64,000 nt of DNA, taken from NCBI GenBank assembly GCA_010015805.1, contig ML978121.1:186001-250000 (forward strand), in the 5' to 3' direction. The notes beneath the pieces were generated by a model that was given only the letters and a program-made list of their open reading frames with translations, did no database searches and was not told where the DNA came from. This document shows positions 2,640-35,055 of this stretch, in pieces. The position numbers and the translations under genes were made by a program. This DNA is from Rhizodiscina lignyota (taxonomy: Eukaryota). Within the stretch, counting starts at the first letter, position 1. Each line of letters opens with the position of its first letter.

Positions 2640-3150
2640 GTGTCATTCGTAGGGTTCTTATTAGAATTTCTCTATTCGCGGAATTCACTCATCACGTTTG
2701 CACCGACTTAACGAAAATCCGTGTAGGAAGCATCACACATTGCAAACTCTCTTTCACATTAAGATTCTATTTGATTATTGATATGTCGTATACTCTATAA
2801 AGCGCCTTGCATGTCAAGCTTCTATTCGCTTATTCGCAGAATCTGCTCGATGCACTTGCGACGACTAGCAAATTTCATATATTTATTAGCCCTGTCTCCA
2901 ACAAGTTTCTCGAACTCGTAGGCGGAGATTTACATTCTGTTCGACTTCTACCGTATACACGTCAATGTCCCTTGCATGTTAGGGTTTTGTTTAATTATTT
3001 TCGTACTGTAAACAGCGGAAAGTACCTCATATGTCAAGCTTCTATCCCATTATTCACGGAGTCCACTCGACGTGCTTAAGCCGACTTAGCGAATTTCGTA
3101 TATGTACGGACGTAATTCTCCTATTTCCATCTGCGCTCTAAGATTTAAGT
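2640..3150. repeat. Degenerate ~55-bp-subunit tandem array (locus 1 of a dispersed family)
   Basis: Related subunit starts at 2761 (aagattcta), 2816 (aagcttcta), ~2870, ~2925, 2981, 3036 (aagcttcta) and 3091 (gaatttcgta). ccttgcatgt recurs at 2805 and 2970 (165 bp apart). 2812-2882 aligns with 3032-3105. Confidence 0.75.
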
Positions 3151-3514
3151 ATACATTGATACGATACTTTGGGGAAACTGCATTCGGTCACGTGAGCAGC
3201 GCATATCTACCTTTTTATTTACGCTGTAGCCATTTGATTACTTAAAAACGGTATCCTGTCAAAAGGTTACCTCGTGGATCTTTATTAACGTTATGGAAAT
3301 AATTACATCAACACCCCACTTTCCGCTTTTGCAGCTGTCGTACAGCGCGCTTAGTTGTGGCACAGCACTGAGCGTGCTTCGAGATTGCTACACCTCACTT
3401 CAGCAGTTAGGCAACCTTACTGTCGACATCGTCTAAGCCTCTGTTTTACCAACTCATAACAATTAACTCTTCACCTTTCAATCTAATACCCTCTAATCAT
3501 CAACTCAATCTAAA

Positions 3515-3829
3515 ATGGCGCACATCCTCACGTCTGTCAGTGGTTTCATCTGCAAACACCCTCGCGTCGCAGTTGGCGCGAGCTCCATGGCTCTCACGCC
3601 GATCTTGGTCTAGGTTGGATGGTTGCTCTCCCTCTTAAGGTCGTTGGCTTCGGATCTGGAGGAGTCGCTGCTGGTACGCTAATTTCATGTCGAGGATACA
3701 GATGGATTGCGAGCTAACAGAAGTTACCCAGGCTCCGTCGCGGCGTGGGCCCAGGGGACGTTCTACGGCGCTTACGTCCCGGCTGGCAGTGTGTTTGCTT
3801 TGGCTCAGTACCTTGGCGCAGTTCTTTAA
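3515..3829 (+). pseudogene. IFI6/IFI27 (ISG12)-like small Gly/Ala-rich membrane protein with a 1-nt frameshift near 3603
   Basis: ATG 3515 gives MAHILTSVSGFICKHPRVAVGASSMALTPI. After a frame change it reads LGLGWMVALPLKVVGFGSGGVAAG, then a canonical intron (3674-3731, GTACGC..CTAAC..CAG), then SVAAWAQGTFYGAYVPAGSVFALAQYLGAVL-TAA. GFGxxGVAAGSxAA...G.V.AGSVFA..Q.LGA is the ISG12 signature. Confidence 0.75.
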
Positions 3830-4095
3830 TCGAGTTGTGTAGAGGGCGGAAGGAAATCCGCTTGAAACTGGGCTGACATTTGATCGTCCGCTCCTCTACG
3901 AGGATACGAATCGATTCATGATACAAACGGCTCATCAGTGGCGGTGGAACTTTCGGCATCTGTTTGACACCGCGCAAAAGTGGCGTGTGTTGTGGAGCTT
4001 AAGGGTGGTGTGTGTTAGTTAGAACAATGCAATAACAGCTTTGGCAAAAATCCACCTTCGCTTACGCCGTCATATTTCACACCGTGACCCAGCGG

Positions 4096-4187
4096 CTTCT
4101 TCCCCTTCCCCTTCCCCTTCCCCTTCCCCTTCCCCTTCCCCTTCCCCTCCTCCTCCTTCTTTCCCTTCTCCTTCTCCTTCTCCTTCT
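4096..4187. repeat. Polypyrimidine microsatellite, (CCCCTT)7 followed by (CCTTCT)n
   Basis: About 90 nt of C/T only; seven perfect CCCCTT units start at 4102. Confidence 0.95.
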
Positions 4188-4642
4188 GTGACTGTTTAGA
4201 CTCCTCTTATTGAAGCTACTCTTGCTCTTCTTTAAATCACGATCTGACTTCTAACCCCTGCTATGATTCTTGACGACGTTGATGGCAATGAGACGGGGAT
4301 TACCACGGTGCAATGGAGAGCAGAATGCGGAATTGGAGAGTTGCAACGCAGACCGGAACACAGACTAGAGCTTTCACCAAGAGTAGACACATGTCTATAA
4401 GCTTGAAGGCAAGCTAGAACGGCAAGCAAGATATCCAAGAGGATTAAGGAGCTAGCAAATATTCAGTCTACGTAAAAGTTTCCAGCCTGGGTATCATTGA
4501 CCGCCCTTGATCCAAACTCCAGCATTCCACTGTGATCATTCGCGAAGCCCGTGATCCTCATAGCCGCTGAGTTCGGAACCATGGCTCATTCCTATCTCTC
4601 CACCAACTCTGTTACCACGCATTACGGCGTCGCGACGACGCG

Positions 4643-5008
4643 CTAGTTCAACTTCTTGTCTCCCACCTTCACCGTGTTGCCCTGGCGGCGTTGATATTGC
4701 AGGTACCCGAAGAAGGCGACAGCGATGACGGCCAGGACGAAGAAGTTGCCTAACAATAACGTCAGCGTTGAAACACTCTGCCGTCTGTATATAGTCTGCT
4801 ACCTACCGACAACGAACTTGCCCAAGCCTCCAGCAGCGTGGATCGTACCGCGCACAAAGTCGAGCAGAAACGTGATGATGCCCTGGGCGAAGTGGAAGAT
4901 GCCTTCAAAGGCGGTGCGGAAGACGTTGAAGATTGTCTGGATGATCGAGCCGAAGAGCTCGAAGACGGACGCGACGATGTCACTGAGAGATTGGACGATG
5001 GACGACAT
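4643..5008 (-). CDS. Small two-exon hypothetical membrane protein (~102 aa)
   Basis: Amphipathic helix MSSIVQSLSDIVASVFELFGSIIQTIF...GKFVVG; intron 4750-4806 (GTAGGT..CTGAC..TAG); then a TM helix and basic tail NFFVLAVIAVAFFGYLQYQRRQGNTVKVGDKKLN-TAG. Confidence 0.8.
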
Positions 5009-5854
5009 GGTGAATTTCGATGTGACTTGAAATGGGAACCAAGTAAGAAGGAAGATTGTGGGCAGTGGAATATCAAAGGAGCTCTGAGTGTGGGAGTCGA
5101 TGAGGTCAGTTGTCTGGAATGTAAAAAAGTGCCGAAGACGGACAACGACACAGTCGGCTAGGAGCCTTTCCTACTTATGGTCATGGGATCGTGTGACACC
5201 AAAATACCATGTTCTGTCGGCACGCAATCATGACGGCGATCGTGAAATGGCATGCAGGTTTGGCTTTTCCCATCTTGTAGCCAGCGAATCACTCGGAACG
5301 CGTCTGGGCTAGATCTGCGTTCAGGCTGACGCGCTCGCTATGACGTCACCGCGTCACGTCACGTGTTGGTGTGTGGAGTGGAGTGGAGGAGGCGCCGAGA
5401 CAAAATCAACACAGCAGAGGCCGAAGTTGCCCAACGCTAGCAGTTAGATTGCGGTGACTTCGACTTCCATTGGATGCGCAAATCCAGTACGGTTCAAGCT
5501 TCAGAAGATGCTCTTTGGACTTGTCGAAATTATGCGACGAAAGTCCTGCTTGCTAGCCCTAGACAAAGCGTATCCTCGGCACGCTTGGTGAAGGGCGAAT
5601 GACGTTCATCGCATCGCAGTGACTGCCGGTTTCTGAGGACAGACGGAAGAACCTTGATTGCATTTAGCGAGAAATTCGAAATGGATATCCAGAAACACCG
5701 CTCAATGCTCTTTCGCCGTCCATAAAGGACCAGGCCGCATGCAGGAAAAGAGGAACGAAGTCACAAGTCCAATGTGAAAGGCTTCATGCGTTGAAAGCCC
5801 ACCCAACAGGAAAAAGAAGATATCGACAACGAACGACAAGTAAGGAGTACTAAA

Positions 5855-8800
5855 TCATCGCTTAAACGCAGCCCTGACATCGCGCTCGCCCCAACCTAAG
5901 CTGCTCACTGATTCATCTCCTTCAAACACATCCCGCCTGGCTCTCTCCGCACGCTCTGCTATGTCAATGTATCGATCCTCGCATCTCTTGAGGACCTTGC
6001 TGATGAGATCACGGCAGAGACTTGGATCGTCACCTTCGCCAAAGTGCTTCTCCACACGCTTCCGCAGAGCATCAGCACCGCGCCGCATATCCTTCGGGTC
6101 ATGTGTGGTGAGAAGTTTGCGCAGCGTCGCCTTGGAATGCATGGAAGTACTGGCCGTGGTGGTTGTAGCAATCGACGGTGTAAGCGACAGCTGCGGCGTT
6201 GTGGTATCAAGGAAGTCCTGTGCACGCTATTAGCTAAGACTGTTGCAATGTATATAACCTGTGTCATCCGTCGACTTACCAGCAACTTGCCAAGCGGCCT
6301 CCTCACCACGCTATCAACATACATGCCCAAGTGTTCTTCCATTTCTTCCCTAGCCTTTCCTTTCCATTCAATCAGTACTGGATTGTTGTGCTCTTCCACT
6401 TCCTCGACGTAGTGGTTCATGTTCTCAATCATTGAAATATGGAAGTTCAGCGCCTCCTTGTCTTCGGGATCAGTCTGCGCAAGCGCACCCATGCCTTGTT
6501 GGCTCTGTAAGGCGAGGCCGGGACTTTCCTTCGCGATGGTTTTGAGGCTGTCAAACATCTGTTTGTTGATTTTGTTATATGCCTCGTCAACGATGTTCCT
6601 GGTGTCAGTCCGCTCGATTGCACCGCCAGAATTATTAGCATCAGATGCTGCCGCAAGCATGTTTTCGACTGCAGCAGAGAACGCGGGGAAGATACGCATG
6701 AAGTCGATGACGCCCTTGCGCTTCTTGATCTTGACCTTCGTCTCTTCGATCTTGCGAATCTGTTCATCCAGCACGCGATTGAATTGGATGGCGAGACCTG
6801 CGTGGACCTTTTGGAGAGTACGGAGGAGATACTCTTGGTTAGAATCTTCGAAACTGAGCATGCAGCGGTCAAGGGCCTGCATGATGCCGATGCCTTGCAG
6901 AGGATCTCCACTGCCCCAGACCGTAGTGGCCCACTGGACCATGTTATTTAGGTCTTGCGGCCAAAAACCCATTAGTTCCTCCATGATATCTTTGATCTTC
7001 TGCGCAATCGTGCGATCGGGCTCGACCGCTTTCCGCGCCATGAGATTCGTTCCTCGCCTTGCATCAGGTGGCGCAATCACGACAGCGTCGGGGAAGTCCA
7101 AGTTCTCTGTGCTGTTCGCATGGAAGAAGTCAACTATGAAGTTCTGCTCAGTGAAGACAAGCGGTGCCATTTCCTCCAATGCCCCGGCGAATGCCTCGAA
7201 GGGATAGAGTCGGCCAATCTGAGCCTTGTCGGCCTTATCGCCAGATGCATTGCGCAATGTCCTCGCGAGTGTCTGGCTTCGCTTGACAGTAAGTTTGCGA
7301 GCAGTTGTTCCAAGCCCTTCTGATTCTTTGTCTGCCGAGGTCCATAAGAGTTCCGACTCATCGCCTGAGGGTTTCCGTGTCATTCGCTTCCACGCGTCGA
7401 AGTTATTCTTGAACTCTTCCTGATAGACCGGCCTTACACGGAGCTGGTACATCCTGATCAAACTGTCCCAAGAGATCATATCGATCTCCTTTGTGAAGAG
7501 CATAAGCGGACTGTACTTCCACAGTGCACGCCTTGCAATGTCGTGCGCTGCGACGTCAAGCCCTGTGCTCCCGCTCCTGCGCTTGATTTCGTCCGTTGTG
7601 TCCATGAGGACGCGGGCAAAATCAAACTCCATGTATTGTTTCAGCCGATCAAGGAACATGGTGCTCTCAGAGATATAGTGTTGCCTCTTCTCCTGTAAGG
7701 CACGCATCTCTGATAGGTCGTCGCCGCCAAACCGAGATGTCTGTACGGGTCTGCTGCCGTTTGTCGACCGAATGTTTGGATCGATGGTGATCATGGCTTT
7801 GTATAACAGCATGAGAGCTGCCTCAATGGCTTCCAATCCCTCTTTCTGTCCAATCTGGCCATCTTTGAGCGCTGTAAGTTGCTGTGGAGCGATATCAACT
7901 GTTTGAATTAAGTTTTGCAACTCCGTCTGCAGCAACTTCTGATTTGCTGTCTGAACCTGAAGGCCTTGCGATTGCGCTTCGATGAACGCAATGTCTTCGT
8001 TAAGGCTCTGTGGCGAGGGTAAGCTGCATCCAAGAGATAGGTCAGGCAACCACCTACGCTTAATTCCACCCCATACAATGTCAGCAGTCCCTCTAGTTCC
8101 TCGCACTCTTGGATCGCTTTATCAAGAAGTTTCTCGACTTGCTCAACCCTCTCGTCCTGATGCTCCACGTTTCCCACACCTGTCCCAAGCCAGCTACCAG
8201 CCTCCACGCGCGCTAGCTCACGGCGCAAATCGGCTTCGATGAAGTCAAGCTTCTTACCCTGGAGCACGCTCCCCGTACCGCTGACGCCCCAACCCAAGTC
8301 CGACAGGATCGCGTCAAATTCCAATGCTCTTGTATCAATCAAACTCGACTCAATACCCAAACTGGATAGATACTTGGCCTGATATTGGGATCGTCTCCTC
8401 CTCTTTCTCGCCTCCTCTTTCTCCTCTAGCGTTCTTAGTGGAGGAGGCTCTGGGCTCGCTGATCTAGGCGCTGGTGGAGGTGGAATTACTGATTCTGGGC
8501 TCTTCTGGATCATAGGCGTTGGGGTTAATGGACTTGATACGGTGACGGATGGAAGATCTTCCGTAATGAGAGGCTGGACCGGTGTCGGTGCACCATCTCG
8601 CTCCTCTGCCATACTTTTAACCATGGATTCATCCGTTCCAGTTCGAGATAAAGGTGCTGGCTTTGGTGCCTGAAATACACCAGTGATACCATCTTGCTCG
8701 CCAGAGCCCTCTGCCTCCAACTTCTTCAGTCGGTCCAGTGCCCCACCAGCACGAGGTTTGAATGCCCCAGCAGATTTCGCGGCACTGGCTACTTTCTTCC

Positions 8801-10698
8801 ACTTGTTAGCAACCTCAACCGCCCCTCCCTTTCTCTTGAACATTGGTCCCAAGCCTGGTCGATACTCCTCCTCTGAAGCTGGAGATTGCACTGGTTCTGA
8901 CGATGAAGGTTCAGGTTCTTCAACCGGAGCAGGGTCCGGCACGGGTACGGGCACAGAGACTGGGGCAGGGGTTGGAGCAGGTTCTGGTTCACGTTCTTGT
9001 GGCGGTGGAGGAGGCGGGGTTGGCGTTGCAATCTTTAAAGGTGGCGGGGTGTGTATCTGCAGAGGAGCCGGAACCGGTACATCGCGATCATTAATAATCG
9101 GCGGCGTGGGAGAGGATACAAACCCTCCAGGCATTTTAGCCACGGCATCCAAACTGTCTTGGCTTGGTGGATTCCGTGTCTGAGCCAGATCTCTGTTATA
9201 TCTTGGGCTCGCCAAAGGCGCAGGAATAGCAGGGTCCCGAGGCCCGTCCTGCCCAATCATCGGAGGGCGACGTCTCTCTGGTGGTTTGGGCATGTCGCTT
9301 GGCATCATCTCTTCAGGCCTCGTGTCCTGGCTAGTCGACGGGCGTGCCCCTTGCGGGGAGCGATCTCTAGGACCTCCAACTGGACCGACACCGTTGGGTC
9401 CGTTGGGTCTGAACCGATCACCCGGTGCATTAGAAATCCCCAATCCATTGAATTTCCTAGAATCGATGTTCGCAGGAGCTTCCGGAGGTACTGGATACTT
9501 GGGTTGCCTTCGTGGCCCTCTTGAATCCATGCTTCTGGAAGAATCTGGGGATTCAGAACGCTGAATCATCATCTCAGATCGTGAAGACTGTGGTGTAAGG
9601 TTTCGCTGAGATGTCGCCACAGAAGACGTCCCTGTGCCACCGAGTGGTTGTGGTGGTCGCATGCCTTCTCGGCTGGGAGCTTGCCGGAGCAATTGTTCCT
9701 GCGATGGGCGGGGACGAAGTGGCCGTAGTGCATCCGGAGGTGGATACATGGCACCAGGAGGAGGCGTTCTGCCCTGTGCTGACGGTGAACGTTGTTGATT
9801 AGGCAGATGTTCCTGGCTACGAGTTGGTCGAGGGGGTTGCGGCGGCCGCTGGAAGCCTTGTGAAGATGGCGGAGGCGAAGCCATCCCGTTCAAGTTTGGA
9901 TTTGACATGTTTGCGGGTGGACTGAAAGGTGCCTGTCTTCCAGTATCCGGTGTTCTGCGTACAGGTGCCTGAGAGCCAGGGCCAAGGATCGCATCAAGTT
10001 CCCGAGAGCTGAATCCAAGCATTTCTGGCACCTTCCCTTGTGTGTACTTTCGGTAAATTTTGACCAAGCTTGCAATGAAGAAGTCCTTTTCTTTCGAGGT
10101 CCCCGCTGCCCAGAAGTATGGCTTCTGGATTGTGACCGTGAATCCAACATCGCCACCCCACTCTTTTCGCTGGTAGTCCTCATTGTTCTGCGGGACCAGG
10201 TGTGAGTACGACTCGATAGCGGTCAGATCCTCCAAATTCCACGATTTTCCAATGGAGAAGGTGCCATTTGGGTTCTCTCTGCCCTTGTGCATCCGAACTC
10301 GACCAGTGTTTCGTACTGCGACAACAATTATACGCTCTTTCTTGTTTGAAGGTGCCGAGTCTGGCGGTGGAGGCGTCTGTGGATATTGAGCGTCTTCGTG
10401 GATTCTGATATGGGTAATGTACGACTCGGCTACTAAAGCAGAAGAAAGTCAATAAATATCGAGGATAAGATATGTAGAGTCCCTTACATCCTCCTGAGGC
10501 ATCTTGCTTTGCAAAGCAGCTCTCAACTATCCTGCGCTTCTCATCTTCGAACTTCTCGGCGCGACTCAAGGGCACTCCCCCTCTGTTAGGCGGCGGTGAC
10601 ATTGCTGGAGAAGGTGCACCGGAGCCTCCGTTACTAAGGTTGGTAACAGAGCCATTGGGATGGCCTCGAGGCGGCAGAGGCCCCCTTCGCGGATCCAT
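5855..10698 (-). CDS. SEC3: Exocyst complex component Sec3
   Basis: N-terminal PH-like domain (FEDEKRRIVESCF..ESYITHIRIHED..GRVRMHKGRENPNGTFSIGKSW), long Pro-rich linker, coiled coil (LYGVELSSLNEDIAFIEAQSQGLQVQTANQKLL) and Sec3 C-terminal helical region (KIKKRKGVI, DPEDKEALNFHI). Introns ~10433-10487, 8008-8057 and 6218-6279. Confidence 0.95.
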
Positions 10699-11274
10699 TG
10701 CCTTCACGCGCGCCCCGCGCGCCCTCAAGAGACGATTCTATGTGGCTCTTGGTCTGATAGTCCGCTTCGATGGTCGTTGCAACATTACTGCCGCGAGTTT
10801 GTCGGAGAGACGGGCATGAAGGTCGAATACGCAAGCTTCTCGTCGGGGGCTGGCGGAGTTTACGGATGGTTCGCACAGGGCCTCCGAGTGATGGGAGACA
10901 CAAAGATGAAAGAAGAATATGGCCTTGAGCCGATCTCGAGGTTCAATGGTGAGGTAGACAGAGGCAAGGATGCGATGGGTGCTTTTGGCGTTGCAAACCT
11001 TAATCGTGTCGCTGTCTCTGCTGCCCATGGCCCATGCCTTTAGCCCATGCCCTGCTCTCACTGCGACAGGCCAGCACATTCACGTTGTTCCGCCCCGCTG
11101 CCGGCTCCGCTAAGCCTCTTTCAGCTAGTGCTGCTACCCCTGCCGAGGCGCCTTCCCTGCCAAAAATTTCCACACTTTGCAGCAAAGGCAGCGGTCAAAA
11201 ATACACTCGAGCTGCAACATCAACACTTCCTCCTGTAACATCGCCTCTCACACCAATTGCGCCCAGTCTCAGTC

Positions 11275-14889: not shown

Positions 14890-15200
14890 AAGTCCTTTGC
14901 GTGATAAGCTTGCACTTGATTGTTATCGGGATGTACTTATCGCTTTTGCGCCGACTTGGGAAATTTCGTACATTTACGCGTAGCATCATCTTCCAATCCC
15001 TCCCGACAGCTTAGAGAGGTATTTATTATCTCAAGTTTATATATGTATGCAGTAAACTCTCGTATATACAGATCTTTTATTCGATTATCTACAGAATCTG
15101 CCCAGTACGCTTGCGCTGACTTGACAAATCTCGTGGGTTTACACGCACTGCCTCTGGCGTTTCGCTCAGGACTAGCGACGGAGCAAATATTCCCTAAGGC
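14890..15200. repeat. Degenerate ~55-bp-subunit tandem array (locus 2)
   Basis: Subunit starts at 14906 (aagcttgcacttgattgtt), 14961 (aaatttcgtac), ~15016, 15071 (gatcttttattcgattat), 15126 (aaatctcgt) and 15181, in an exact 55-bp register. It shares cagaatctgc..cttgcgc.gactt with locus 1. Confidence 0.7.
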
Positions 15201-15329: not shown

Positions 15330-17300
15330 GGTCCAGATCTCGCGTGGCGATTGTCATATGTCAATTGACATTACAATGATGGTCTGCAATGTTGAGAGTC
15401 GAAACGGGAAGTTATCCCGCTGCTGGGTACCTGGCTTCAGTCGGTTGGTGTTGATTATTTTATATTGTGCGGGTCCTCCTGTTTGGAAGACTTTCTCTGG
15501 TTCTCTGGCCCATTGTGATGACATGTTCGGCTTCGCTGCCATGATGAAGGTAAGCCCACGCTTGCCATATTTGTCGATGCGTGAAATAAGATCTGAGTCT
15601 AGTCTAAGACGGAGGTTGTTCATGTGTAAAATAGCTAGTGACGACGACGCAGGCTTGCCCATTGCTGCGCCATCAGCGACGATGCATGCCCTGATGTCCC
15701 TGTTTTCTAGACATCTAACGATATGGAGGATCGCAATCAGTTGATGATATCGGATTGATGCATGTCCAATGGGAGCCGTGTTGGCCAGGCGTCGTCTCGT
15801 CTCGTCAACTCAACCTGCAATTCTTTGATGGTAGTGTCTAGGCTTATACCGCCGTCAAAGTCCGGGGTCGTTGTCCTGAACTACGTAGAGCCAGTTAGCA
15901 CAGCACTAGACATTATGTTCGCACAACACAATCACATACAATGTCCCTACGCTCTCCGCCATTCGGCGCTCGGTCGGTTGGTGGAAGAGTGCGATCGGAT
16001 CTCTAGCCTCGGCGATGACTTCGACTTCCGTACTCTCCTTCAAAGGCATCAGACAGTAATGCCGTGCTCTTTCAAATAAGTCACCTTCTTTCTGAATCGA
16101 GGCGTCTTGGTACATCTGCCTAGGTACCAACATTTTCGTTAGGTGATGGAGTGGGTCATCCAAGTATTGGCAGCCGGAAGCCTCGAACGACAGTTCAGCT
16201 CTAGTATGTCTGTCCCAATCCGCCTTGTTGAAAACTCGCGGATCTGTTGCATGTCAATCACGATTGAAAAGAGTTGATTGAAGGAAGGAAGCTCACTACA
16301 GGAAGTGTGAGATATTACACAGTGGCAAATGGCCCTAAGGCTAAGCGAACACCTCTGACATTACATCCGCTTTTCAGGCGTCGTCTCCGCCATCGTATAA
16401 TAATAGTCTTAGCCACTAAGACTTAAGTAAAGCTCGGGCTGCTCCTTCTAGTCGGAGCTTTCTGCGGCGACAACCTTCAAGCCCCAAGGGCGGACTGTCG
16501 GCTAATCATCGAAGACATCGAAGACGAGACTCAAAGTCACCCCTCGCAATTTCGGCCAATTTCCAGTTCTCTGGCACAGCAACTCCTGGGCAGAGTTCTT
16601 TCACCCTCTTCGACGGTTGCCAGCCTATGCCATACGCAAAGGCATATCTCACGGACCTGATGAAAGCCAGGATAGTCTGGATATGGATGGAGGTCCCTTT
16701 TCGGTACGTGGCGACGTTTACCGGCAACGATATGGTAGTCGATGATTACGAGTGTGAGCCAAGAGTACCAGTCGACCGTCGAAAGTTCCTGTGTGATGGT
16801 CGAGTTATGCCGTTCTTGGGATAAGAGGTTATTGTAACTTTGGACCGCGGCCGTCACTTGCGTGATTACGGTCTCCCAACGGAACCCTTTGTGGCCTTTG
16901 CTCTTCTGAATCAACTCGCGGTGAAATCGCGTAAAGGCAAGCTTTATCGGTTGGAAGTTGATAATCTCGTCGACCAGGCTTGTCGCCGAATTTCCGGTGC
17001 CCCAATGGGTGACAAACATATCAATCAGTTCTGCTCTCGTTGCGTTCCTGGGAATCTTTACTCGGAGATTTCTTATGACGGCAGACGGCACGAACACTGT
17101 ATCGTCTAGTGTTGTCTCCACAAGAGCAGCGCCGCCGATCTCGAAATTTGCCCACCTTACGAGGTCCAGGCCCCCCATATTACTGACAGGATCAAGTAAT
17201 CCTTGGTATCGATAGGCAATGGCACGGGCAGTGTCGCGCCGACGAATATCGTAGGGGAATGGTACCCAGAAAGGTAGTGAGATCGAGAATGCACACTGTA
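15330..17300 (-). pseudogene. Decayed multi-exon gene with a possible SNF2/SF2 helicase-like motif I relic
   Basis: Successive ORF fragments in changing frames (16537-17178, 15906-16163, 15354-15760) with intron-like GT..CTAAC..AG segments. One fragment reads IRYHQLIAILHIVRCLENRDIRACIVADGAAMGKP, resembling SNF2 LRPYQ...GCILADEMGLGKT. Confidence 0.45.
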
Positions 17301-24238: not shown

Positions 24239-25402
24239 GTGCAAGGGCTCCGTCCCTGGATGGTTACGTTGTAGTCGACTCCGAAGAAGTCTGAGGGAGT
24301 TGGGCAGAGGAAATCTTTGCTCCGGAAGGGTGCGTATGAGTTGAGCACAGGCGGGTCGCTGGATGGTTCAAGTGAGCTACTGTGGGAAGGCGTTCGTTGG
24401 GGTTGTGAAAATAGGCCAAGAAAGCCTCGGTGGCGGCGTGGCCACCCTTCTCGGGGCCGAGTAGTCCTCGACGCCTGTTGAAAATAGAAGTGTCAATTCA
24501 TTGCATCAAGAATATGAAGGAAGCAGAAAGACTTACTCGGAGGAAAGCTAAGAACGTGGTGGTCTTGTCTTGTCGAGTCGAAGTGCAAAGGCCGAGCAAG
24601 ATTAGGCGCTGAGAATGGAATTATAGAAAGAGAGATGGAAAGTTGAAGAGCTTGTATGAAGATGTATGGTGGATGAGAGACCTTGAAAGCGCAATGTACG
24701 CGGGGGGAAGAATTGTGAGGGTTGTGGGGGTTGCAGAACGCAGGTTGAGGAAGAGCGGTGGAAGAGCTTATAAGGTCAAGATCTGAGGCGAATGTACAGC
24801 GATGAGAGAAAAGTCAGAGATTTGGGAATGAATATGTAGTAGCTTGAAGGCAACCACTAAATAAGCTTTCGCTGAGAGGGAGTGAAATGCGTAGAGCAGT
24901 GAGTACTCGGCCTTGCTTGTAAAGTAAGATAGCCCCGCTCTCTGAGAGTGAAAGTCAGCTACGAGGTGCAGTACGGAGAGGAGCAGTATGGGCATTTGAA
25001 TTCGGATAAACGTGTCACTCCACCATCTGTGTGAAGGTGTGACGACACCGATAGCTTTTCGGAGCAATATACTTGGACGCGTAGAGGCCAATAGGCACGA
25101 GGTTGGGGACCAGCGACATTGTCTGCACATACAAGGCATCTGCAATGCGCTCAGCTAGTTTCACTCTAAAAGGAGACATGAATCAAACGGAGAAATAGAG
25201 CGTCAACAGGCGTAGAGAGGAGGTATGAACAGATGGACATCGATATGTCGTCCCCGTCTTGGCAGCGCTATTCCAAATACGATCAGACGTATCAGCCACA
25301 CCAGTGTATCTTGGCTCAGGGGAAACAATTCAATTGCTGCTACTTTACACTATGAAGGTTTCACATCTAGTATCGAAGATTTCAAGTTCGGCTCATTACA
25401 TG

Positions 25403-27057
25403 TCAACGTGGAAGCGTCATCCATTCAGGACGCCCTTCAGTGGCCCCAGGAGGCGGCGGTAGTACTGTGTCTGGCATAATTTCTCCTTCGCCTACGTCGC
25501 CCTGTTGCCCAGGCATTGGATTCATCGATTCCGTCTGAGGCATATTCCTTGTTGGTGTCTGCGGTTCCGGTTGAGGAGCTGGCGGTGCTTCTTCGTCTGA
25601 TTGCTTCTCATGGTGGAAACCAAGATGGTCCAAGCCCAGCGAATGCAGAATCTTCGCGGTCTTATCTCTCTGCTTTTGTCGGACCTCATGATGCGGGTTC
25701 TTTGTAGGGTCATTCCAGTCGTCTGCGTCTTGGCCGGGGTTGGCCATCTCGTACTCGAGCAGTTTGATAAACTTGTAAAAGGTGACAGCTATGAGTGCCC
25801 CAGCAATTGGACCGACCCCTACGCTTATGGTCAGTGCTATGCAAGCAATCGATGCTCACATGCTCACAATAAATCCAGTGATTCTTGTCCCAGGTGCCTG
25901 TCACAACAACTGGCCCGAAACTCCGCGCAGGATTCAATGACCCTCCTGTATAAAATACTCCGGCCAATTGAGCGATGAAGAGCGCAAGGCCGATGCCGAT
26001 TGGCGCGATGAAAGTCGACCTATGCTTTTCTTTCGCTAACATTAGGATTGTAAAGACGAGTTCGGCCGTCAAGAATGCCTCAATAAACACACCGCGGACG
26101 ACGGAAGTCGGTGCACTCAAAGTTGTGAGGACATTCAGTCGCGCCGGGAAGATTCCCATGACCATTGCCGATGCAGCGATCGATCCAACGATTTGACTCA
26201 GGAAGAGACAGATTGCCCTTAGAGGACCGATCGCTCCAACAAGCAGCATTGCTATTGTCACCTGCATTCTCAATCAGCGTATGCTCTGGAAGCCTTCGGA
26301 GGATGTTAAATCATACCGCAGGATTAAACAATGCTCCGCTGATTCGAAAGAATACCCATGCATTAACCATCAAGCTGAAACCAAAGCTCATCGCAATATA
26401 GAGCAGTTTCACCGGGCTGAAGCCAGTTGTCTCATTCGTGGTAGTGCCAGCCGGCGTATTACTCCCAATATTTGCAACTTCAGTCCCTGCGAAAGCAAAG
26501 AATAGAAACATGGTTGTGCCAACAAATTCACCAAGGGACGCCACAAAATGGTTCTTCGCTGTGCTATTCATCCACATCGTCCAAGGCAAGCCACCAATAT
26601 TGTTGTCGTTCGGTCGGCGTGAAGCCGCAGGAGTGCCCATGTGCGGAGGGTATGGTGAACCGTACGAGCGCTCGGAAATGGCATCAGCCCGTTTGAAGTC
26701 CCAAGACAATCGTGAAGAAGGTCCCAGTGGTTGAGGGACGAATCCCATCTTCCTTAGTTCCTTGACGTCATAGAAGGACAGATTGCTACCGCTGGCGCAT
26801 TGGCGATGGTTGGATTGAGAGACAGGCAGGTGTGTATTTGTAGAGTTGCTTCTAGACAAATGGCGGCCCCTCGGTGATTCAGGAACGCGAGCCGAGATGG
26901 AGTGCGAGATGCTGACCGGTGGATATGTATTTGTAGCAATGTGTGCTTGTCTGACCGTGTCTTGACCGTCCAGACTTCTCGTATAGCTTGTCTCTGCTGG
27001 CAGTTGCTGTTCTTGACCAGTCTCTTGGCCTTCTGCCATGTGTCTCCTCACGGACAT
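25403..27057 (-). CDS. Aquaporin (MIP family, orthodox fungal type) with long N- and C-terminal extensions
   Basis: KNHFVASLGEFVGTTMFLFFAFAG, ISGALFNPAV, TGGSLNPARSFGP, HWIYWVGP and YEMANPGQD. Introns 26262-26316 and 25819-25867. Confidence 0.95.
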
Positions 27058-29116
27058 TCTTTTCCTGGGTTCGCTGGAAATTGATGTTCTTCTGACCTTT
27101 CGCAGCCCTAAGAGGTCGAAAATTTCTGCAAGACCTCACGAGCTCGAGGAGCCTCCGCCCTCAAATACTACTTAATCACAGCGTAAGTTTTCTCTGGAGA
27201 TGTATAATTTAACTCCGTCTAAGGAATGCGGACGGGATCTAGCGCTGCTATGGCAACTGAAACCATCAACTGTATGTGCAGGAATGCAATTACGAACTGA
27301 GCCAATGGGACAACTGCCTTAAAGGTCTCGGAATCTTCATGAAGAGGAACAAATCAAACTACGCATGCAGAAGAAGTCCAGAACATTTTGAAAAGGAAAC
27401 AACTGTAGGAAGGTAACTTATTTGTTCGGAATTCCACTCCCTTCCAATTAATTTATACGAAGTAGCGCCGCTCCCAGCCCAAAGGCAAGGTAACGACGTT
27501 GACCCCGGAAGACCTGTATTGAATGATTTATAATTGAGAATCGATAAGCTCGGTTCTTGCCCATCTGCGGTGCTTGTTTGATCATGAGAATTTGAATGCT
27601 GCAGGGTGGTATCACGAAGCCGACCAGTACCCCGATGGTACCCCTCACGGGAGTGGTACCTACGATGCCCCGAAGTGTCCCAGTTGTTGACGATGGCCCG
27701 AGCTATTACGGTATAATTAAGAGGTTAAACTGATTGAGGGACAAAGCTTGGAGTCCAATGTGCATTATATCTCGGAGGATTCCAGATCCAATGTCGACGG
27801 TGAGAAATTTCATCATAGGTAGTTGAAATGTTGTGTAACAGTAGCCAATGAGCTACCGCATGAGTTGGTAGTTACAACATAAACAGACTTCTAGATCAGA
27901 GTTGTAAGAGGACGAATAGCGGGAGTGGAGTGATCGTCATATCCAGATCGTAGATCGTGTGGAAGGAGTAGTCGCATAGATAGGAAATTGTATCTTATGG
28001 AGGTAGAAGCCAAGTTCTGTCAGCATACAGGATCCGGACAGCCCGTTCAAGTTGGAAGTACGATTAAGAGAGCCTCTGCGCTGTAGACATTCCGACAAGA
28101 TGTGCACATTGGTCGCACGAGGCCGTATCGACGATACAGCCAGTTTGAAGATAGACGAGAAGGAGCTGCACCACTCATATGGCTGGAAGCAGTTGTATTG
28201 CCGAGACACATGCCAAGTACGCCTGTAAATAAGATCTGGTAAAGTTGTTTAACGCGAGAGAAAACACTGAGGTAGCTTCCGCAACAATGGAACTCGCACC
28301 TCAGGAAGAGTTCGAGCGGAAGAAATCGCTCTTTGAACTTGGTGAAATTGTGCAGCGAAATCCCCAAATATTCAAACAAAACTTTTCACATGTCATGCTC
28401 AGCCACCCAATAAACAGTTTGTAATTCAATAGCAAGGCTAGACGATAACTCCTGGTCCGTGGGAACAGTGCTTGAGCCGAACGGCCGAAATTGTCCTCCA
28501 ATTCCACTCCACGATGTTGTTCTTACAACCCGTTCATCAATTCTTTACCGTCTTCTGCGCAGATTTGTTATTTGTTGAACTGTCCTGTATCTACGAGGAT
28601 CTTAGGGATAGGCTTCTTGACATGCATGGACTGTTATCTCTACTGACACTGCTGAGGCTGCTCTGGACTCAGTTTGCTTCCACTTGGAGACCATCAGCGA
28701 CCCCAACAACGCTTAGTAGTCGACGACCAAGGGCATTCATAATGTACACTGGGTGAACATGTCCTCGCGATTTAGGAACATCACGAACCTAAGCGTTGTG
28801 GACTCTATATGTCATCGGACGTTGTATTGGTTTTTGCAGGAGTAACGCTCAGAGGTATTTTCTAGGTTAGAACAAAGAGCTTCGCCAAATCATCATAAAG
28901 CAGAAAAGCCCGTCATCAAGCCATCATGTCGTGAGAGCCGCCTGCATGCCAGAATGCCAGCTTGAGACATCGCCTCGACGCCGCCTGAATGCACATCCCA
29001 TCTACATTCCATCCCGGCCGTGAAGCATCTTGATTAACGTAGATAGCCAAAACAGCTCGACATATTCCACCCATTTTAAACCCACCCGACTCCTCTCTGC
29101 CTACGCTGCAACTCTA

Positions 29117-30608
29117 TCAGGACGCGAAAACCCGTACGTTCAAGTCTACGCTCCCTGTTGCAATTACACATCGAATGCCGACCTTCGTTGCCTCGTCTTT
29201 CTTAACCCCATTCGGCGCCCCGTTCGTATCTCCGTTCACTTGCTGAGGTTCCTTCATTATACCGGGCGCCCAGCGCATACAGCTGACGAAATGACCATGC
29301 GCATCCTCGAGTGTCTTGACACATTTTCCCTCCTGTGCCAAATCCCAGCACCTTATAGTCTTATCGTCGCCGCATGACAAAAGATATTTTCCGCCTGGGT
29401 GCCACACCATCGCTCGGACCCAGTTGTCGTGGCCAACTAGTGTTTTGATCAACGTGCCTCGGCCATCCCAGATCTTTATCGTTTTATCTCTTGATCCAGT
29501 TGCAATGAATTCTGCTGAACTGCTCGCTGCTGGGGCCTTCTTCAACCCTGCCAAAGCCGCTAGATGTGGATATGCAGCTGGTGGTGCTATAGCAACGCAC
29601 TCGATGACATGTTCATGCCCTGAGAAGATGCCTTTCTGTTCGCCAGAGGAAGGGTCCCAGAGTCTCGCTGTCTGGTCGTTTCCTGCGCTCACAAGCCATC
29701 GTCCGTCGAAGCTTGGTGACACGTCGCGAACCCAGTCGGCATGGCCACGTATTGTCTTGACGCAGTAGCCAGTAGTGACATCCCATACCCGTAACGTCTT
29801 GTCTCTGCTTGCGGATACTAGGAGATTTCCTGACATTGGCGCGCCAGCTGCCCCCGAGGGAATAAATCTTATTGCAGATACCGAGTGGTCATGACCAGGT
29901 AGCGTCCGAATGTTCTTGTACTCATCTGCAGGGTCCCACAGCTTTATTGTGAGATCACTCGAGCAGCTTGCTAAGAGTGTGCCACCCCTTGGGCCGCCAA
30001 AATCCACGTCCAGAACGCCTTTTGTATGGCCCTTCACCGTTCTTTCCAGCTCTCCAAGTTCCCAATCCCATATCTTTATTGTTGCGTCTTCTGAGCCCGA
30101 CGCAAGCGATGAGAAAACAGGGTGGAATGCCACGCAAGTGACAGGTGAGCGATGCGATTGTAGGGTGTGTCGCGCAGGTGATCGAGGTAGCCAAGTCGTT
30201 GGATCTGCATTTCGGCGTAGGAGAGAAGTGGGGGTTGTGGAGTCGAGTTCGGCTTGGAGAGTTGAATTTCGTGCTTCGAGATCCATTATCTGTGGGTGGT
30301 TGCGCCATTTAGTCCACAACGTCAATCTATGTGAAGGTGAGAATACTGATGTACCTTCTTCTGCAATCTGACCACACTGGTCCATTTCTTCTCCAAAAGG
30401 CCCTCATACTTCTTTCGTGTAGCATCGTCGAAGCTGTCGCCTATTTGCAGCTCCTCTCGAAGGGCCGCCGCGCTGTTTGGAAGGTTACAGGCAGAAAGGT
30501 AGGCAATTATGGACTTGTGACTGCAGTGTAGTCAGCTCGAGATAGTGATATGCCGCGCTTGTAGGCGTACAGCTCCTCTGCTTGCCTGCTCGTGAGAAGC
30601 TGGCTCAT
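29117..30608 (-). CDS. nudF: NudF/LIS1 (Pac1) dynein regulator: LisH, coiled coil and WD40 repeats
   Basis: [21 protein letters not shown]...[20 protein letters not shown], then [25 protein letters not shown] and seven WD repeats. Two introns (~30523-30570, ~30292-30353). Confidence 0.97.
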
Positions 30609-31365
30609 GTCGTGTGATTGGTCAAATCCTTCTTCTCCAGCGGCACCAGGCCCAGATTGTTTTGCTCATCCACAGGCGTTATATGTTTCGTGAGATTCGC
30701 CCGATCCGCCCTGGCACGTGAAGTGTAAGGTGCAGTTGATGCAGCGGTGGAGGGAGAAGGGTGGCCTGCTCGTGCTTGCGATTTTCTCCTTTTGCCTGCA
30801 GATTGGGGCTCGCGAGCGTGTCGATGCAGCAGGAGAAAGGTGGTGCTTGTCTGCTGGAGAAAACCTTGAACGATATAATCAAAGACGCGCGCTCGGGGAA
30901 TTTTGTCTTGGCTGAAAGTGGTTTGAGTGAATGTTCTGGGACGCCGATAGTCTCTTGGTGGTGACGGTTGCCGGGCCGTGACGTTTTTATCTGGGGTCAA
31001 AACATTGCTGCCCACTGCCAACTCTTAATCTACCTTCTATATCCCACCGCCACCGCCTTCGCACGCCGAAGTCGCGACAATTTTATGATCGCATACGAAT
31101 TGCAATTACATTTGCTCACAATACGCGTCCATATCGCGTCTTCTCGCAGTCTCACAGGGCGCCTTGTTTATAACCCTGGCGACAGGCTCCTCATAAATAC
31201 CGCAAGACCCGCTTGCGACTGCCTCAACATTTCAGACAATCTTCGGTCGCGCGATCACGAGAACGTCTAGAAGAGGCTCTTGATCCCGAGATAAACACAC
31301 TATCAGCGCGCCCTGTTCGTCACCGAATCTGCCTACCGCTATTTGAAGACAGTCCAGCCGTAACT

Positions 31366-34300
31366 ATGGCCGACCAAGAGGAGGACTTTAGTTCCCTACC
31401 ACTGACGGAGAGATGGGTACACAAGAACTGGAAAGTGCGGAAAGAAGCGTACGAGGCTGCGGCAAAGGAGTTTGAGAGCGCGCAGTCCGAGAACGACCCC
31501 ACCGTTCGCACGTTCACAAACGATTCTTCTTTATGGAAAGGCGCTGTGGGAGACTCAAACGTGGCGGCGCAACAGGAAGCGCTGGGCTCGTTATGCTCAT
31601 TCTTGCAGATTGCTGGGACACACGGTTGTACGAGGTACGTTTGAGCTCGATGGACCTATGATGAGGCCCTTTATTGATGAGAAGGTACGCAGGACGCGAA
31701 GCCTTACTATTGTTCCAATAGTAGAGAAGGGCCTGGCAGCTACACGACCGGCCGCGAAGCAAAAGGCCTTGGAAGCGATATTACTATACATCGAGCTCGA
31801 CAAGCCGGACCCTATAGTCGATGAGCTACTACCTCTCCTCTCACACAAACTGCCAAAAATAATTGTTGCCACGCTCTCCGCGTTGAGGGAAATATATCAC
31901 GCATATGGGTGCAAGACTGTTGAGCCTAAGCCCACTCTCAAGATTTTACCAAAGGTTTTCGGCCATGCAGACAAGAATGTCCGAGCTGAGGCGCAGAATC
32001 TTACGGTCGAGTTTTACCGATGGCTCAAGGATGCAATGAAGCCTCTTTTCTGGAACGAACTGAAACCACTCCAACAGCAAGACTTGGAGAAACAGTTCGA
32101 AAAGGTCAAAGACGAGCCACCTCCAAAGCAGGAGAGATTGCTCCGGTCACAGCAAGCTGTGGAAGAAAGAGCAGTAGAAGGTGGTACGGATGGCGCCGAT
32201 GTCGATGATGTTGGAGCCGAGCCCGAGATTGACCTCGAGCCCGAATACATGGCAGTCAATGTGATGCCAAAGATTCCGAAAGATTTGCAAGACCGGATAG
32301 CTTCATCGAAGTGGAAAGACCGGAAAGAAGCCCTGGATGATTTACATACAGCAATCAACCACCCCAAAATCGAAGATGGTCCCTTTAATGACATCATCCA
32401 AGCGCTGGCAAAGTGCATGAAAGACGCGAACATCGCTGTCGTCACAGTTGCGGCCAACTGTATCGAAATCTTTGCGCGTGGACTCAAGAAGGGCTTTTCC
32501 AAGTACCGCAACATTGTCATGTCACCCATGATGGAGCGCCTGAAAGAGAAGAAGCAGTCAGTTTCAGACGCCATTGGTGCTGCATTGGACGCAGTCTTTG
32601 CCGCCACAAATTTTGGAGACTGTCTGGAAGAAATCTTGGGCTTCCTCACACACAAGAACCCACAAGTAAAACTGGAGTCGACACGGTTTCTCATTCGGTG
32701 TCTCAGGACAACACGGGAGGCACCGCAAATACCAGAGGTCAAATCAATAGCAGACGCTGCAACCAAGCTCCTCACAGACTCACAAGAAGTGCAACGATCA
32801 GCCGGCGCGGAAGTTTTGGGCACACTCTGGAAGATCATGGGCGACCGCATTATGAACCCTCATCTCGACGGTCTTGACGAGATTCGCAAGACAAAGATAA
32901 AGGAGTTCTACGAATCCGCCGAAGTAAAGGCCAAATACAAGCCGAAGAGTGCACCGCCTCCAAAAGCTGCGCAGGGGGGATTTGGCGCAAAGAAATCCGG
33001 TGGGGGTCCAGGGAAGAAACCAACTCTAGGAAAACGACCCACACCCGCAGTAGCAGCCCCACCGGCAGAAGAAGAACCGGCAGCAGCACCTCTCGCTCCC
33101 CGGCCCACGAGCAGACCCGCATCAGCGGTGGCTGGTGCATCGAAGCTCATTCGCCCCAAGTCTGGCATCGCCGCACCGGGCTTGAAACGACCTGGTGGTA
33201 TCCCAGGCCCATCATCAGTATCTGGAGGTGCTTCTCCTCGTCGTGCTGCCCCTCCCACGCTGGAATCAGAAGACGAACTGTCGCCACCTCGCGCAGCACC
33301 AGCGACCCACAAACTTGGCCTAGCTGGTCGTGGCCTTACTGGCCGACCATTGGGCAAACCCGTCGCGGAACCCACGCCTGTATCCCCTCCTGCGCCACCT
33401 TCCGGCCTAACAGGCCTGGGCACAGCTGAGCGCGCCGAGCTTGAGGAGCTGCGTGCGGAAGTCGAAAGCCTACGCCGTTCGAATGAAGAGCTCAAACAAG
33501 AGCGCACGAAGATGTCGAGTCAGATCAACGAGCTGCAAAATCAGAATGCGCAGCTCATAGAGGACCACACGCGCGACGTGCTGAGCATCAAGGCAAAAGA
33601 AACACAGCTTGTCCGCGCACGATCTGATGCCGAAGCAGCGGAGCAGACGGTCCTCAGTCAGCGGCGTGAAGTCGAACGGTTAAAGAGAGAGATGGGTCGG
33701 TTAACGAGGGGAGATCTTGGACCAGTCTCGCCACCGTCGTCCTACACGCCATCTATGACGGGTGATATTTACAACGACCTCAATGGCGCCACGTTGAATG
33801 GTGCAGGCGGTCTGGCGAGGAGTAGGAGCCAAGCTGGAACAGGCCGGCCACCGTCCCTGATTCTCGAACAGCAGCAAAGAGAGGACGGCATAGGTAAGGA
33901 AAACTTTGCATCTGAGACAAGTGTCCTGGGGCGTAATAAGCTGAGCCCCGTTCGCGGTCCAGGTCTGAGGTTAGGCGGAGCGGGAAGCCCGACAGGAGGG
34001 AGAGGTGGACTCGGCTTGGGAGGCCTGGCGGGAGAAGATGGAGGACTCAGCAGAACAAGCAGCAGTGCTTCAGGAACCAGTGGGGCAGCATTGTCCGGGA
34101 ACGGAGTTGGCGCTGGTGCTGGTGGAGCGGAAAGCTGGAAGAGGGCGGCGGAGGTTACGCAGAATCTCAAAGCAAGGATCGAGCTTATGAAGGTATGTGC
34201 CGCCCTATTTGCCACTAATTCTTCCCCCGCACTACCTCTACTTCTTTCCAGCGGTGCCGCGTAATGCGCTGCAATGGATGGCGTCAGACGTCGTGCATAT

Positions 34301-34409
34301 CTCTTCCAAATCCCCGGAATCCGGCAAGACCATGCTGTGCTACCGACCTCACATTGCTGACATGGTTGTTTTCCTGCAGGCTAAGCAAGGTCTTTCAAGA
34401 CCGCATTGA
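31366..34409 (+). CDS. STU2: XMAP215/Dis1-family microtubule polymerase (Stu2/AlpA)
   Basis: TOG1 (HKNWKVRKEAYE..DSNVAAQQEAL), TOG2 (SSKWKDRKEAL..KDANIAVV), basic linker, coiled coil (LIEDHTRDVLSIKAKETQLVRARSD) and C-terminal ESWKRAAEVTQNLKARIELMK|AKQG. Introns 31635-31692 and 34193-34379. Confidence 0.95.
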
Positions 34410-34799
34410 CGGGACTGATTTGCAGCGCGGGGTGTACCTTTGATTTCAGTTTCTTGCCTTCCGCATGTCTTTCGCCCTGCATACCGCCATAGTGGGGATG
34501 GATCGCTGGATATGAGTGTGCTTAAAGAGCTTGCATCGTCATTGGCGTTTTTCTCACTTTCGTCTCGTGCTTGGGAAGTCTCCATTCCGCAAAAGAGGGG
34601 ATGAGTAATGTCCTTCAGGCTGCTGTTGGCTTTGATATACGCAGTAGTTACTATGATAACGCGCTTGTCGATACCCACTGGCTAGTCTCTTAGAAAGGAG
34701 TCTCGCTAGTTTACATTCTGTCTTTAATTATTCATAATAATGCTACTTTGAAATATTTTCGGTTCTCTATGACCGATATGTGTGTAGCAAACCCGACCG

Positions 34800-35055
34800 C
34801 GCGAGCACGCGTTTGGTTGTGCGCAGAGTCCACTCAACGCACTTACGCTAGACTTTGGAATTCCACGTATTTAGTTGTCTAGCATCTGGCGGTGAGCATC
34901 CTACCGTGAATAGAGGCGCAAATTGTCATGTCTCTCCATGAGAAATTACGGGCTCCTTCTATCGACCGAATCTGAATTTGGCTATGCGTGGAGTTTATTT
35001 AATATACCCACGCTAGACTTAGGAATTTCAGCTATTCAGTCGCTTGACCTCTTGC
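34800..35055. repeat. Two degenerate copies 165 bp apart (locus 3 of the dispersed family)
   Basis: 34813-34887 and 34978-35052 align without gaps (core acgctagactt.ggaatt.ca). gagtccactcaacg matches locus 1 gagtccactcgacg (~3059). Confidence 0.75.

What the first reader, a model, noticed from the sequence alone, without database searches (positions are those of the whole stretch)
2640..35055. Cryptic dispersed intergenic repeat family with 55-bp subunits and a 165-bp higher-order period
Seen: three separate intergenic loci (2640-3150, 14890-15200, 34800-35055) share a degenerate unit, roughly AAGCTTCTATTCGATTATTCGCGGARTCYRCTCGACGCRCTTGCGCCGACTTRG|GAATTTCGTA. Subunit starts keep a near-exact 55-bp register (2761, 2816, ~2870, ~2925, 2981, 3036, 3091; and 14906, 14961, ~15016, 15071, 15126, 15181). 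Like subunits recur at 165 bp (2805/2970, 14906/15071, 14961/15126, 34813/34978). All three loci have the same orientation. Weaker possible copies lie at ~17940, ~24810-24850 (minus), ~50737-50800 and ~59820-59880 (minus). Inference: spacing is much better preserved than sequence. Since 55 bp is about five helical turns and 165 bp is about one fungal nucleosome repeat, this could be a selected chromatin element (nucleosome phasing, boundary, replication origin) rather than an ordinary minisatellite. Alternatively it is the subterminal array of an old mobile element. No gene call explains it.
Basis: partly seen in the sequence, partly recalled or inferred. Interest (0 to 1): 0.8.

Follow-up and report, generated by a model that had tools for sequence, protein, structure and literature searches.

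The report
Gene-facing fossil 55/165-bp repeat in fungus
A wood-dwelling fungus carries a few hundred worn copies of a nucleosome-length repeat between its genes; they look like remains of an old jumping-gene family, yet they mostly point the same way towards the end of the neighbouring gene, which is unexplained.

Summary
The repeat is real and genome-wide. The three arrays hold seven ~70-bp cores. Pattern searches of the genome (a Dothideomycete; PAC1 99% identical to Rhizodiscina lignyota) gave 69 vs 1 and 107 vs 0 control hits; I collected 181 units at 115 loci. Of 63 spacings, 36 lie within 1 bp of a multiple of 55, mostly 165 and 220. The four 'weaker copies' are not members.

Selection on the sequence in place is not supported. 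Even the best columns are only ~83% conserved, the closest sister loci match equally in core and spacer (~70%), indels occur, and length spread resembles a decayed MITE control. Three loci share a junction with that MITE. Most likely these are relics of tandem arrays carried by an old mobile element; the carrier and its ends were not found.

One surprise remains: the gene on the unit's 3' side points towards it at 71 of 85 callable loci, replicated in held-out loci and absent in the MITE. No match was found in 697 kb of metagenome DNA around PAC1 relatives. The scan had noted the MITE before; I found no note on this repeat.

The parts
2640..3212 (+). Array A: three cores plus intervening 55-bp subunits and a ~100-bp 3' tail shared with two other loci
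   Evidence: profile hits; colinear with G000:C12:802210 up to about window 3212; the end of the tail also occurs near C22:71013
2658..2728 (+). core A1 (has a ~6-nt length change)
2761..2815 (+). 55-bp subunit preceding core A2; 56-58% identical to the subunits at 2925 and 2981
2816..2886 (+). core A2
2925..3035 (+). two related 55-bp subunits; the extra one makes the 220-bp spacing
   Evidence: 53% identical to each other, null 99th percentile 44%
3036..3106 (+). core A3
14906..14976 (+). core B1
15071..15141 (+). core B2, 165 bp after B1; faces the end of a minus-strand ORF at 15357-15809
34803..34873 (+). core C1, ~540 bp behind the Stu2/XMAP215 gene
34968..35038 (+). core C2, 165 bp after C1; faces a minus-strand coding-like stretch
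44276..44722 (+). copy of the ~232-bp MITE family (control family), with 185 bp of other DNA inside its right end

Best explanation
The arrays are decayed remains of an old, now inactive mobile-element family whose internal or subterminal DNA was a tandem repeat of 55-bp modules grouped in threes (165 bp) or fours (220 bp). Shown: a genome-wide dispersed family; growth in 55-bp steps; subfamilies; arrays copied as blocks; even decay of roughly 15-17% per copy. Inferred: the modules diverged inside the active element lineages, where short motifs (probably binding sites for an element-encoded protein) and their spacing were kept; copies then spread and decayed neutrally. Inferred, not shown: the polarity towards gene 3' ends comes from oriented insertion, or from loss of copies whose 3' side faced a promoter. 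The carrier was probably a DNA transposon linked to the ~232-bp MITE family, but it is not identified.
For: Family size: 69 vs 1, 31 vs 3 and 107 vs 0 control hits; 130 units at 81 loci vs 0 in reversed DNA; 181 units at 115 loci; capture-recapture ~230 units at ~180 loci, probably low. Subfamilies: a 19-unit clade with support 0.985 on a star-like tree, 81% of length in terminal branches. Block copying: C2:3053541 and C4:686756 are colinear over ~290 bp with unit 1 matching unit 1 and unit 2 matching unit 2; other pairs are colinear over 120-400 bp with indels. Uniform decay: the 16 best columns match consensus in 82.7% of cases, variance 0.0107 vs binomial 0.0089, 12 of 181 units perfect vs 8.7 expected. 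In the 5 sister pairs with spacer identity >=0.65, best-column identity averages 0.70 and spacer identity 0.68 (my averages of rows). Conservation does not differ by orientation (0.84 vs 0.80, p 0.26) or by distance to the gene (rho -0.09). Indels: in 40 held-out loci found by the left block alone, the right block was in register in 20, shifted in 4 and unrecognisable in 16. Length: 25 of 36 spacings of the 165 class are within 1 bp, vs 10-16 of 26-27 for the MITE over 165 columns (p 0.02-0.59). MITE link: MITE sequence lies directly 5' of the first unit in 5 of 115 loci, three with the same orientation and a homologous linker; the MITE body itself forms a ~166-bp tandem at C4:2050371.
Against: No shared termini, target duplications or flanks were found for most loci. 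MITE inverted ends are not enriched around arrays: 8 and 7 outward vs 6 and 5 inward of 115. MITE and unit profiles are not significantly similar (best p 0.025 of 4 tests). Five abutting MITEs against roughly 2 expected is marginal by count (my estimate). No Helitron or MULE domain was found in the genome, and only one pogo-type fragment, far from arrays (the Helitron search rang in no control either). There are no young copies: at most 62% identity over 165 bp. Over all 14 sister pairs the best columns are still more alike (0.73) than the variable ones (0.48). The polarity is not shared by the MITE (13:10 and 17:9) and has no demonstrated cause. Gap-free-ascertained cores show 5 indels in 85 units, 460 substitutions per indel vs 20-47 for the MITE; ascertainment explains part of this, perhaps not all.
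Confidence: 0.62

Rival explanations
1. A host-used, polar cis-element at gene 3' ends, possibly domesticated from a transposon: a terminator, roadblock or chromatin boundary in which a sequence-specific protein reads the core, with one unit per nucleosome.
For: The gene on the unit's 3' side points towards it in 55 of 64, 39 of 43 and 27 of 28 callable loci at three thresholds, vs 47-50% at random intergenic positions. Replicated 19:7 and 17:3 in 40 held-out loci. Tandem contexts 28:6, p 2e-4. 29 of 39 'towards' ORFs have Pfam hits vs 0 of 4 'away' ORFs. Both subfamily groups show it, 9:2 and 62:12. Column conservation is uneven and is the same in 36 units not picked by any pattern, r 0.89. 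165 bp fits the 161-166 bp repeat length of Leptosphaeria.
Against: Binomial decay of the best columns, and no better conservation in the favoured orientation or close to the gene. Stop-to-core distance ranges from about 0 to 1085 bp. Only ~180 loci, a small minority of intergenic regions. Array A itself faces the 5' end of a small Ifi-6-16-like gene. No match behind Stu2 orthologues of other fungi. The 220 and 110 steps are not nucleosome multiples.
Confidence: 0.17
2. Sequence-defined replication origins or fork barriers lying behind genes.
For: Intergenic (1 of 81 and 2-3 of 40 loci overlap coding-like DNA, vs 54% coverage in a 90-kb sample), polar, rich in convergent gaps, spread over most contigs. 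Recalled, from no call: polar barriers built of ~55-60-bp repeats (fission-yeast RTS1) and long origin motifs in some yeasts.
Against: Not AT-rich (47% GC). Sparse and uneven: 0 units in a 90-kb unbiased stretch, 7 in this window. Neutral-looking decay. The literature search for the RTS1 analogy returned nothing.
Confidence: 0.05
3. Retroelement remains (solo LTRs or LINE 5' monomers with internal tandem duplications), whose promoter or poly(A) signals explain the orientation bias.
For: Orientation bias relative to genes is typical of retroelements (established knowledge). Sister blocks are about 240-390 bp long.
Against: No reverse-transcriptase or other element gene among 42 neighbouring ORFs on the 3' side (5'-side neighbours were not scanned). 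No shared flanks or poly(A) ends. Growth in 55-bp modules and the junction with a terminal-inverted-repeat MITE point to DNA elements.
Confidence: 0.11
4. Relic of a repeat-protein gene, micro-exon array, or structured/Pol III RNA (5S- or tRNA-derived).
For: 165 is a multiple of 3; 55 bp is near the fungal intron length (recalled); one 5S gene sits inside an array.
Against: 55 and 220 are not multiples of 3. Information is flat across codon positions (0.69/0.66/0.59) and at most 27 of 59 units are open in any frame. No consensus RNA structure. No Rfam hit. Similarity to the genome's 5S genes is at shuffle level, 11.7 vs 11.3 bits.
Confidence: 0.03

Closest known systems
Cg_HINE: satellite-like arrays carried by non-autonomous Helentrons in Crassostrea gigas (PMC7492417; passages read)
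   Same: Short dispersed arrays of nucleosome-length monomers (140-180 bp there, 165/220 here) outside heterochromatin, falling into subfamilies.
   Different: There the monomers cluster at >=70% identity and sit between conserved flanks with subTIRs, a microsatellite and a 3' palindrome. Here units average 36% over 165 bp, have a 55-bp substructure, show no such flanks, and are polar relative to host genes.
VANC-target tandem repeats in Arabidopsis VANDAL (Mutator-like) elements (PMC5735166; passages read)
   Same: Non-coding tandem repeats in which short same-orientation motifs are multiplied by repeat gain and loss; a model for why motifs and spacing would be kept within element lineages.
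   Different: No transposase or binding protein was found here; MULE domain search negative; the copies are old fragments among host genes.
~232-bp MITE family of this genome (earlier scan note e1-7578723; re-collected here)
   Same: Similar age (19-27% from consensus), intergenic, physically joined to repeat units in five loci, itself forming a ~166-bp tandem in one locus.
   Different: It has clear inverted ends, no significant profile similarity to the unit and no polarity relative to genes.
Fission-yeast RTS1 polar fork barrier (recalled; no paper seen, search empty)
   Same: Polar, built of ~55-60-bp repeats.
   Different: A single locus with a known Myb-type protein; nothing here tests barrier activity, and no sequence comparison was possible.

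Membership tests
Helentron/HINE-borne satellite-like arrays | short dispersed arrays of 140-180-bp monomers | tested here: met
   arrays of 1-6 cores; 36 of 66 spacings in the 165 class
Helentron/HINE-borne satellite-like arrays | conserved flanks with subTIRs, microsatellite and 3' palindrome | tested here: not met
   all-against-all flank alignment of 115 loci found only pairwise or subfamily matches; decay could hide short ends
Helentron/HINE-borne satellite-like arrays | autonomous Rep/helicase partner in the genome | tested here: inconclusive
   PF14214: 0 matches, but it rang in no control genome either
MITE / terminal-inverted-repeat DNA transposon derivative | terminal inverted repeats bounding the arrays | tested here: inconclusive
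   no enrichment over 115 loci; MITE end present 5' of units in a few loci
MITE / terminal-inverted-repeat DNA transposon derivative | target-site duplication or empty sites | not testable with these tools
   ends undefined; no second strain or close relative available
Mutator-like element with motif-bearing tandem repeats (VANDAL type) | MULE transposase and long terminal inverted repeats | tested here: not met
   PF10551: 0 matches in the genome, rang in 3 controls; only 2 inverted array pairs
Nucleosome-positioning sequence | unit length equals nucleosome repeat length | tested here: inconclusive
   165 fits 161-166 bp in Leptosphaeria; no value for this species; 220 does not fit
Nucleosome-positioning sequence | ~10.5-bp periodic A/T and G/C dinucleotides | tested here: inconclusive
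   peaks at 10.5-10.7 bp with permutation p 0.03-0.04 in 3 of 7 tracks, not the strongest peak in the WW or SS tracks
Nucleosome-positioning sequence | phased nucleosomes in vivo or in vitro | not testable with these tools
   no MNase data in reach
Selected host cis-element | motif columns evolve more slowly than spacers after dispersal | tested here: not met
   closest sisters 0.70 vs 0.68; binomial decay at 83%
Selected host cis-element | non-random position and orientation relative to genes | tested here: met
   71 of 85 callable loci face a gene end; held-out 17:3
Selected host cis-element | kept at orthologous sites in relatives | tested here: inconclusive
   no hit in 697 kb of metagenome loci, nine of which show the Stu2 C-terminus; these fungi are distant
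5S- or tRNA-derived SINE / structured RNA | similarity to 5S or Rfam family; conserved fold | tested here: not met
Repeat-protein coding relic | codon-phase conservation and open frame | tested here: not met
RIP-mutated repeat | TpA excess and CpA/TpG loss | tested here: not met
   product index 0.85, substrate index 1.14, GC 47%; transitions 748 vs transversions 627

The most novel reading that the evidence does not exclude
A transposon-derived, nucleosome-length polar element has been recruited, or at least filtered by selection, at roughly 200 gene 3' ends of a filamentous fungus. It would act as a sequence-defined terminator, boundary or origin read by one protein, a kind of element for which my searches found no description in these fungi.
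Probability: 0.17. Interest if true: 0.8.

Novelty: new variant of a known kind. Interest (0 to 1): 0.42.

Why it matters
On the likely reading, this is a fungal case of satellite-like arrays spread by a mobile element, a pattern described in oysters, with an unusual 55-bp modular build. It is so old that ordinary repeat finders miss it: Tandem Repeats Finder reported none of the arrays and a BLAST-type search found only the query. The replicated polarity towards gene ends is the part a specialist would want explained. It implies either a targeted, oriented insertion mechanism or a strand-specific effect on transcription. If the arrays are functional, they would give ~180 natural, directly testable sites for sequence-defined termination, boundary or origin activity in a filamentous fungus.

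Tried and rejected
Exon/intron or repeat-protein origin: no codon periodicity or open frame. Structured RNA: no consensus fold, no Rfam hit. 5S origin, suggested by a recalled resemblance: shuffle-level score against the genome's own 5S genes. A Ulp1-carrying transposon at the six-unit array: the Ulp1 gene sits among ordinary host genes and no transposase was found. Palindromic or dyad structure of the unit: best inverted self-correlation 0.19, with several centres scoring alike. MITE-unit homology and shared inverted ends: not significant. RIP: indices normal. The 20-fold indel deficit was largely set aside after the held-out test. The 3' tail of array A gave no further BLAST-level copies. 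Paper searches for a description of this repeat found none: searches returned 0 papers, one search returned unrelated listings, and one search listed 10 papers naming the species, none about repeats by title (listing only). Dfam and Repbase were not available. A motif scan of outside collections was not run, so presence in other fungi rests only on the loci. Scan look-ups by sequence or relatives were blank.
Full report
Setting. The window holds ordinary fungal genes, among them Sec3, SRP40, PAC1, Stu2, a multicopper oxidase and TFIIH p62. PAC1 is 99% identical to a protein named from Rhizodiscina lignyota, with other Dothideomycetes next. The genome has 33.4 Mb in 33 contigs and the window is C1:186001-250000.

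The observation. Tandem Repeats Finder reports none of the arrays, but direct-repeat search and dot-plots recover them. There are seven ~70-bp cores: three in A (158 and 220 bp apart), two in B and two in C (165 bp apart). Like subunits are 49-69% identical against a null of 31%. The extra 55 bp of the 220 spacing in A is a second copy of the subunit that precedes the core. None of the four weak sites scores; one is a MITE copy.

Genome-wide extent. Three degenerate patterns gave 69, 31 and 107 hits against 1, 3 and 0 for the reversed pattern; the two largest sets are evenly split between strands. A matrix trained on 644 kb of fetched loci found 130 units at 81 loci and none in reversed DNA. 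Forty more loci, taken from the 100 listed of 107 left-block hits, brought the set to 181 units at 115 loci; 6 of the 40 had no unit above threshold. Five further listed loci could not be fetched. Capture-recapture gives about 230 units at 180 loci, probably an underestimate. Of 63 spacings up to 450 bp, 36 are within 1 bp of a multiple of 55; 36 of all 66 are in the 165 class and 15 in the 220 class. The profile is most self-similar at lags 55 and 110, and one subfamily shows up to four plain 55-bp units in a row.

What it is not. It is not coding, not a structured or catalogued RNA, not 5S-derived and not RIP-altered. It is intergenic: 1 of 81 and 2-3 of 40 loci overlap coding-like DNA, against 54% coverage in a 90-kb sample.

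Is the sequence under selection in place? At first it looked so. Cores average 47% identity between loci yet align almost without gaps, with 460 substitutions per indel against 20-47 for the MITE. That set was collected with gap-free tools. In 40 held-out loci chosen by the left block alone, the right block was in register in 20, shifted in 4 and unrecognisable in 16. Four of 24 does not differ significantly from 36 of 119 MITE blocks (p 0.22). Spacing is tighter than MITE length, but only moderately: 25 of 36 vs 10-16 of 26-27 within 1 bp.

The low average identity mostly reflects old differences between unit types. There are subfamilies, and sister loci are colinear over hundreds of bases, with indels, through cores and spacers alike. 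In the five closest sister pairs the best columns (0.70) match no better than the spacers (0.68). Over all 14 pairs the best columns do exceed the variable ones (0.73 vs 0.48), but barely exceed their value in unrelated pairs (0.69). Each unit misses about 17% of the 16 best columns, with near-binomial scatter and no dependence on orientation or distance to the gene. This is what neutral decay of copies from several master sequences predicts.

Link to a mobile element. MITE sequence abuts the first unit in 5 of 115 loci. Three of these share orientation and a homologous linker, so a MITE-plus-units composite was copied at least three times. At C4:2050371 the MITE body is itself tandemly repeated at ~166 bp, and at C2:2942762 in shorter steps. 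In the window a MITE copy carries 185 bp, 73% identical to window 35258-35438, inside its right end, near where the units join in two composites. The units may thus be captured filler rather than native parts. Against a general link: MITE ends are not enriched around arrays, the profiles are not significantly similar, and no candidate transposase was found. The carrier remains unidentified.

The unexplained part. With codon-scored ORFs as gene proxies, the neighbour on the unit's 3' side points towards the unit in 55 of 64 callable loci of 81 (39 of 43 and 27 of 28 at stricter thresholds), against 47-50% at random intergenic positions. The held-out set gave 19:7 and 17:3, and the pooled set 71:14 with 30 of 115 uncalled. 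The 5' side (61:38) behaves like the MITE (30:19); 3' side vs 5' side p 0.002; tandem contexts 28:6. Pfam confirms 29 of 39 'towards' ORFs and 0 of 4 'away' ORFs; all are ordinary host genes. The caller misses small intron-rich genes. Array A is an exception of this kind: it faces the start of a small Ifi-6-16-like gene (weak Pfam match, E 0.009). The true ratio may therefore be lower. Oriented insertion or removal of promoter-facing copies would explain the bias without present function; neither is shown.

Other species. Eighty metagenome loci around PAC1 relatives (697 kb; 413 kb from the 46 best-ranked hits, nine showing the Stu2 C-terminus behind which array C lies) gave no hit. These fungi are distant and the sample is small, so this excludes only broad conservation at that site.

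Literature. I read passages only of PMC7492417, PMC5735166 and bioRxiv 10.1101/2021.04.16.439968 (its supplements were not seen and do not bear on the quoted values). Searches found no description of this repeat; most subscription journals, Dfam and Repbase were out of reach. RTS1, yeast origin motifs, Pack-type elements and retroelement orientation bias are recalled, not read.

Verdict. This is a real, apparently undescribed family with the stated 55/165-bp build. It is most likely a fossil of transposon-borne tandem arrays (0.62), with a replicated polarity that keeps a functional reading open (about 0.2 for terminator, boundary or origin together). Novelty: new variant of a known kind. Interest 0.42.

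Noticed in passing
window 44276-44722 and 35258-35438: The MITE copy carries 185 bp, 73% identical to the minus-strand coding-like stretch beside array C, just inside its right end: a Pack-type capture of nearby gene DNA.
   Followed up: partly
G000:C2:3053617-3053736 (L199): An intact 5S rRNA gene sits inside a three-unit array, same strand, stretching one spacing to 345 bp; 1 of 10 5S loci examined.
   Followed up: partly
L018:5990-7200 (G000:C2:2465992-2467200): Longest array found, six cores spaced 164, 166, 290, 220 and 165 bp, ending about 300 bp behind the stop of a Ulp1 protease gene with unusual alanine-rich and short peptide repeats.
   Followed up: partly
G000:C2:2942762 upstream 1.2 kb (L061) and C4:2050371 (L112): The MITE body forms its own tandem arrays, ~85-110-bp steps at the first locus and ~166 bp at the second.
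   Followed up: partly
window 3516-3830: Small intron-containing plus-strand gene with a weak Ifi-6-16 (IFI27-like) match, E 0.009; missed by ORF lists.
   Followed up: partly
window ~3165-3212; G000:C12:802210 and C22:71013 flanks: A ~45-bp segment with a central palindrome is shared, at 78-85%, downstream of three arrays of the window's subfamily; a possible element end. No further copies at BLAST level.
   Followed up: partly
G000:C1:1440976-1442238 and C8:1386767-1387526: The only two inverted arrangements of units among 81 loci.
   Followed up: no
window 4099-4186 and 39899-39946: A 6-bp pyrimidine tandem repeat (14.7 copies) and a 10-bp tandem repeat (4.9 copies).
   Followed up: no
window 29120-34264 and metagenome loci L253-L290: The divergent PAC1-Stu2 gene pair is kept in many other fungi.
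   Followed up: no
G000:C8:651429-651593: The only pogo-type DDE_1 fragment found in the genome.
   Followed up: no
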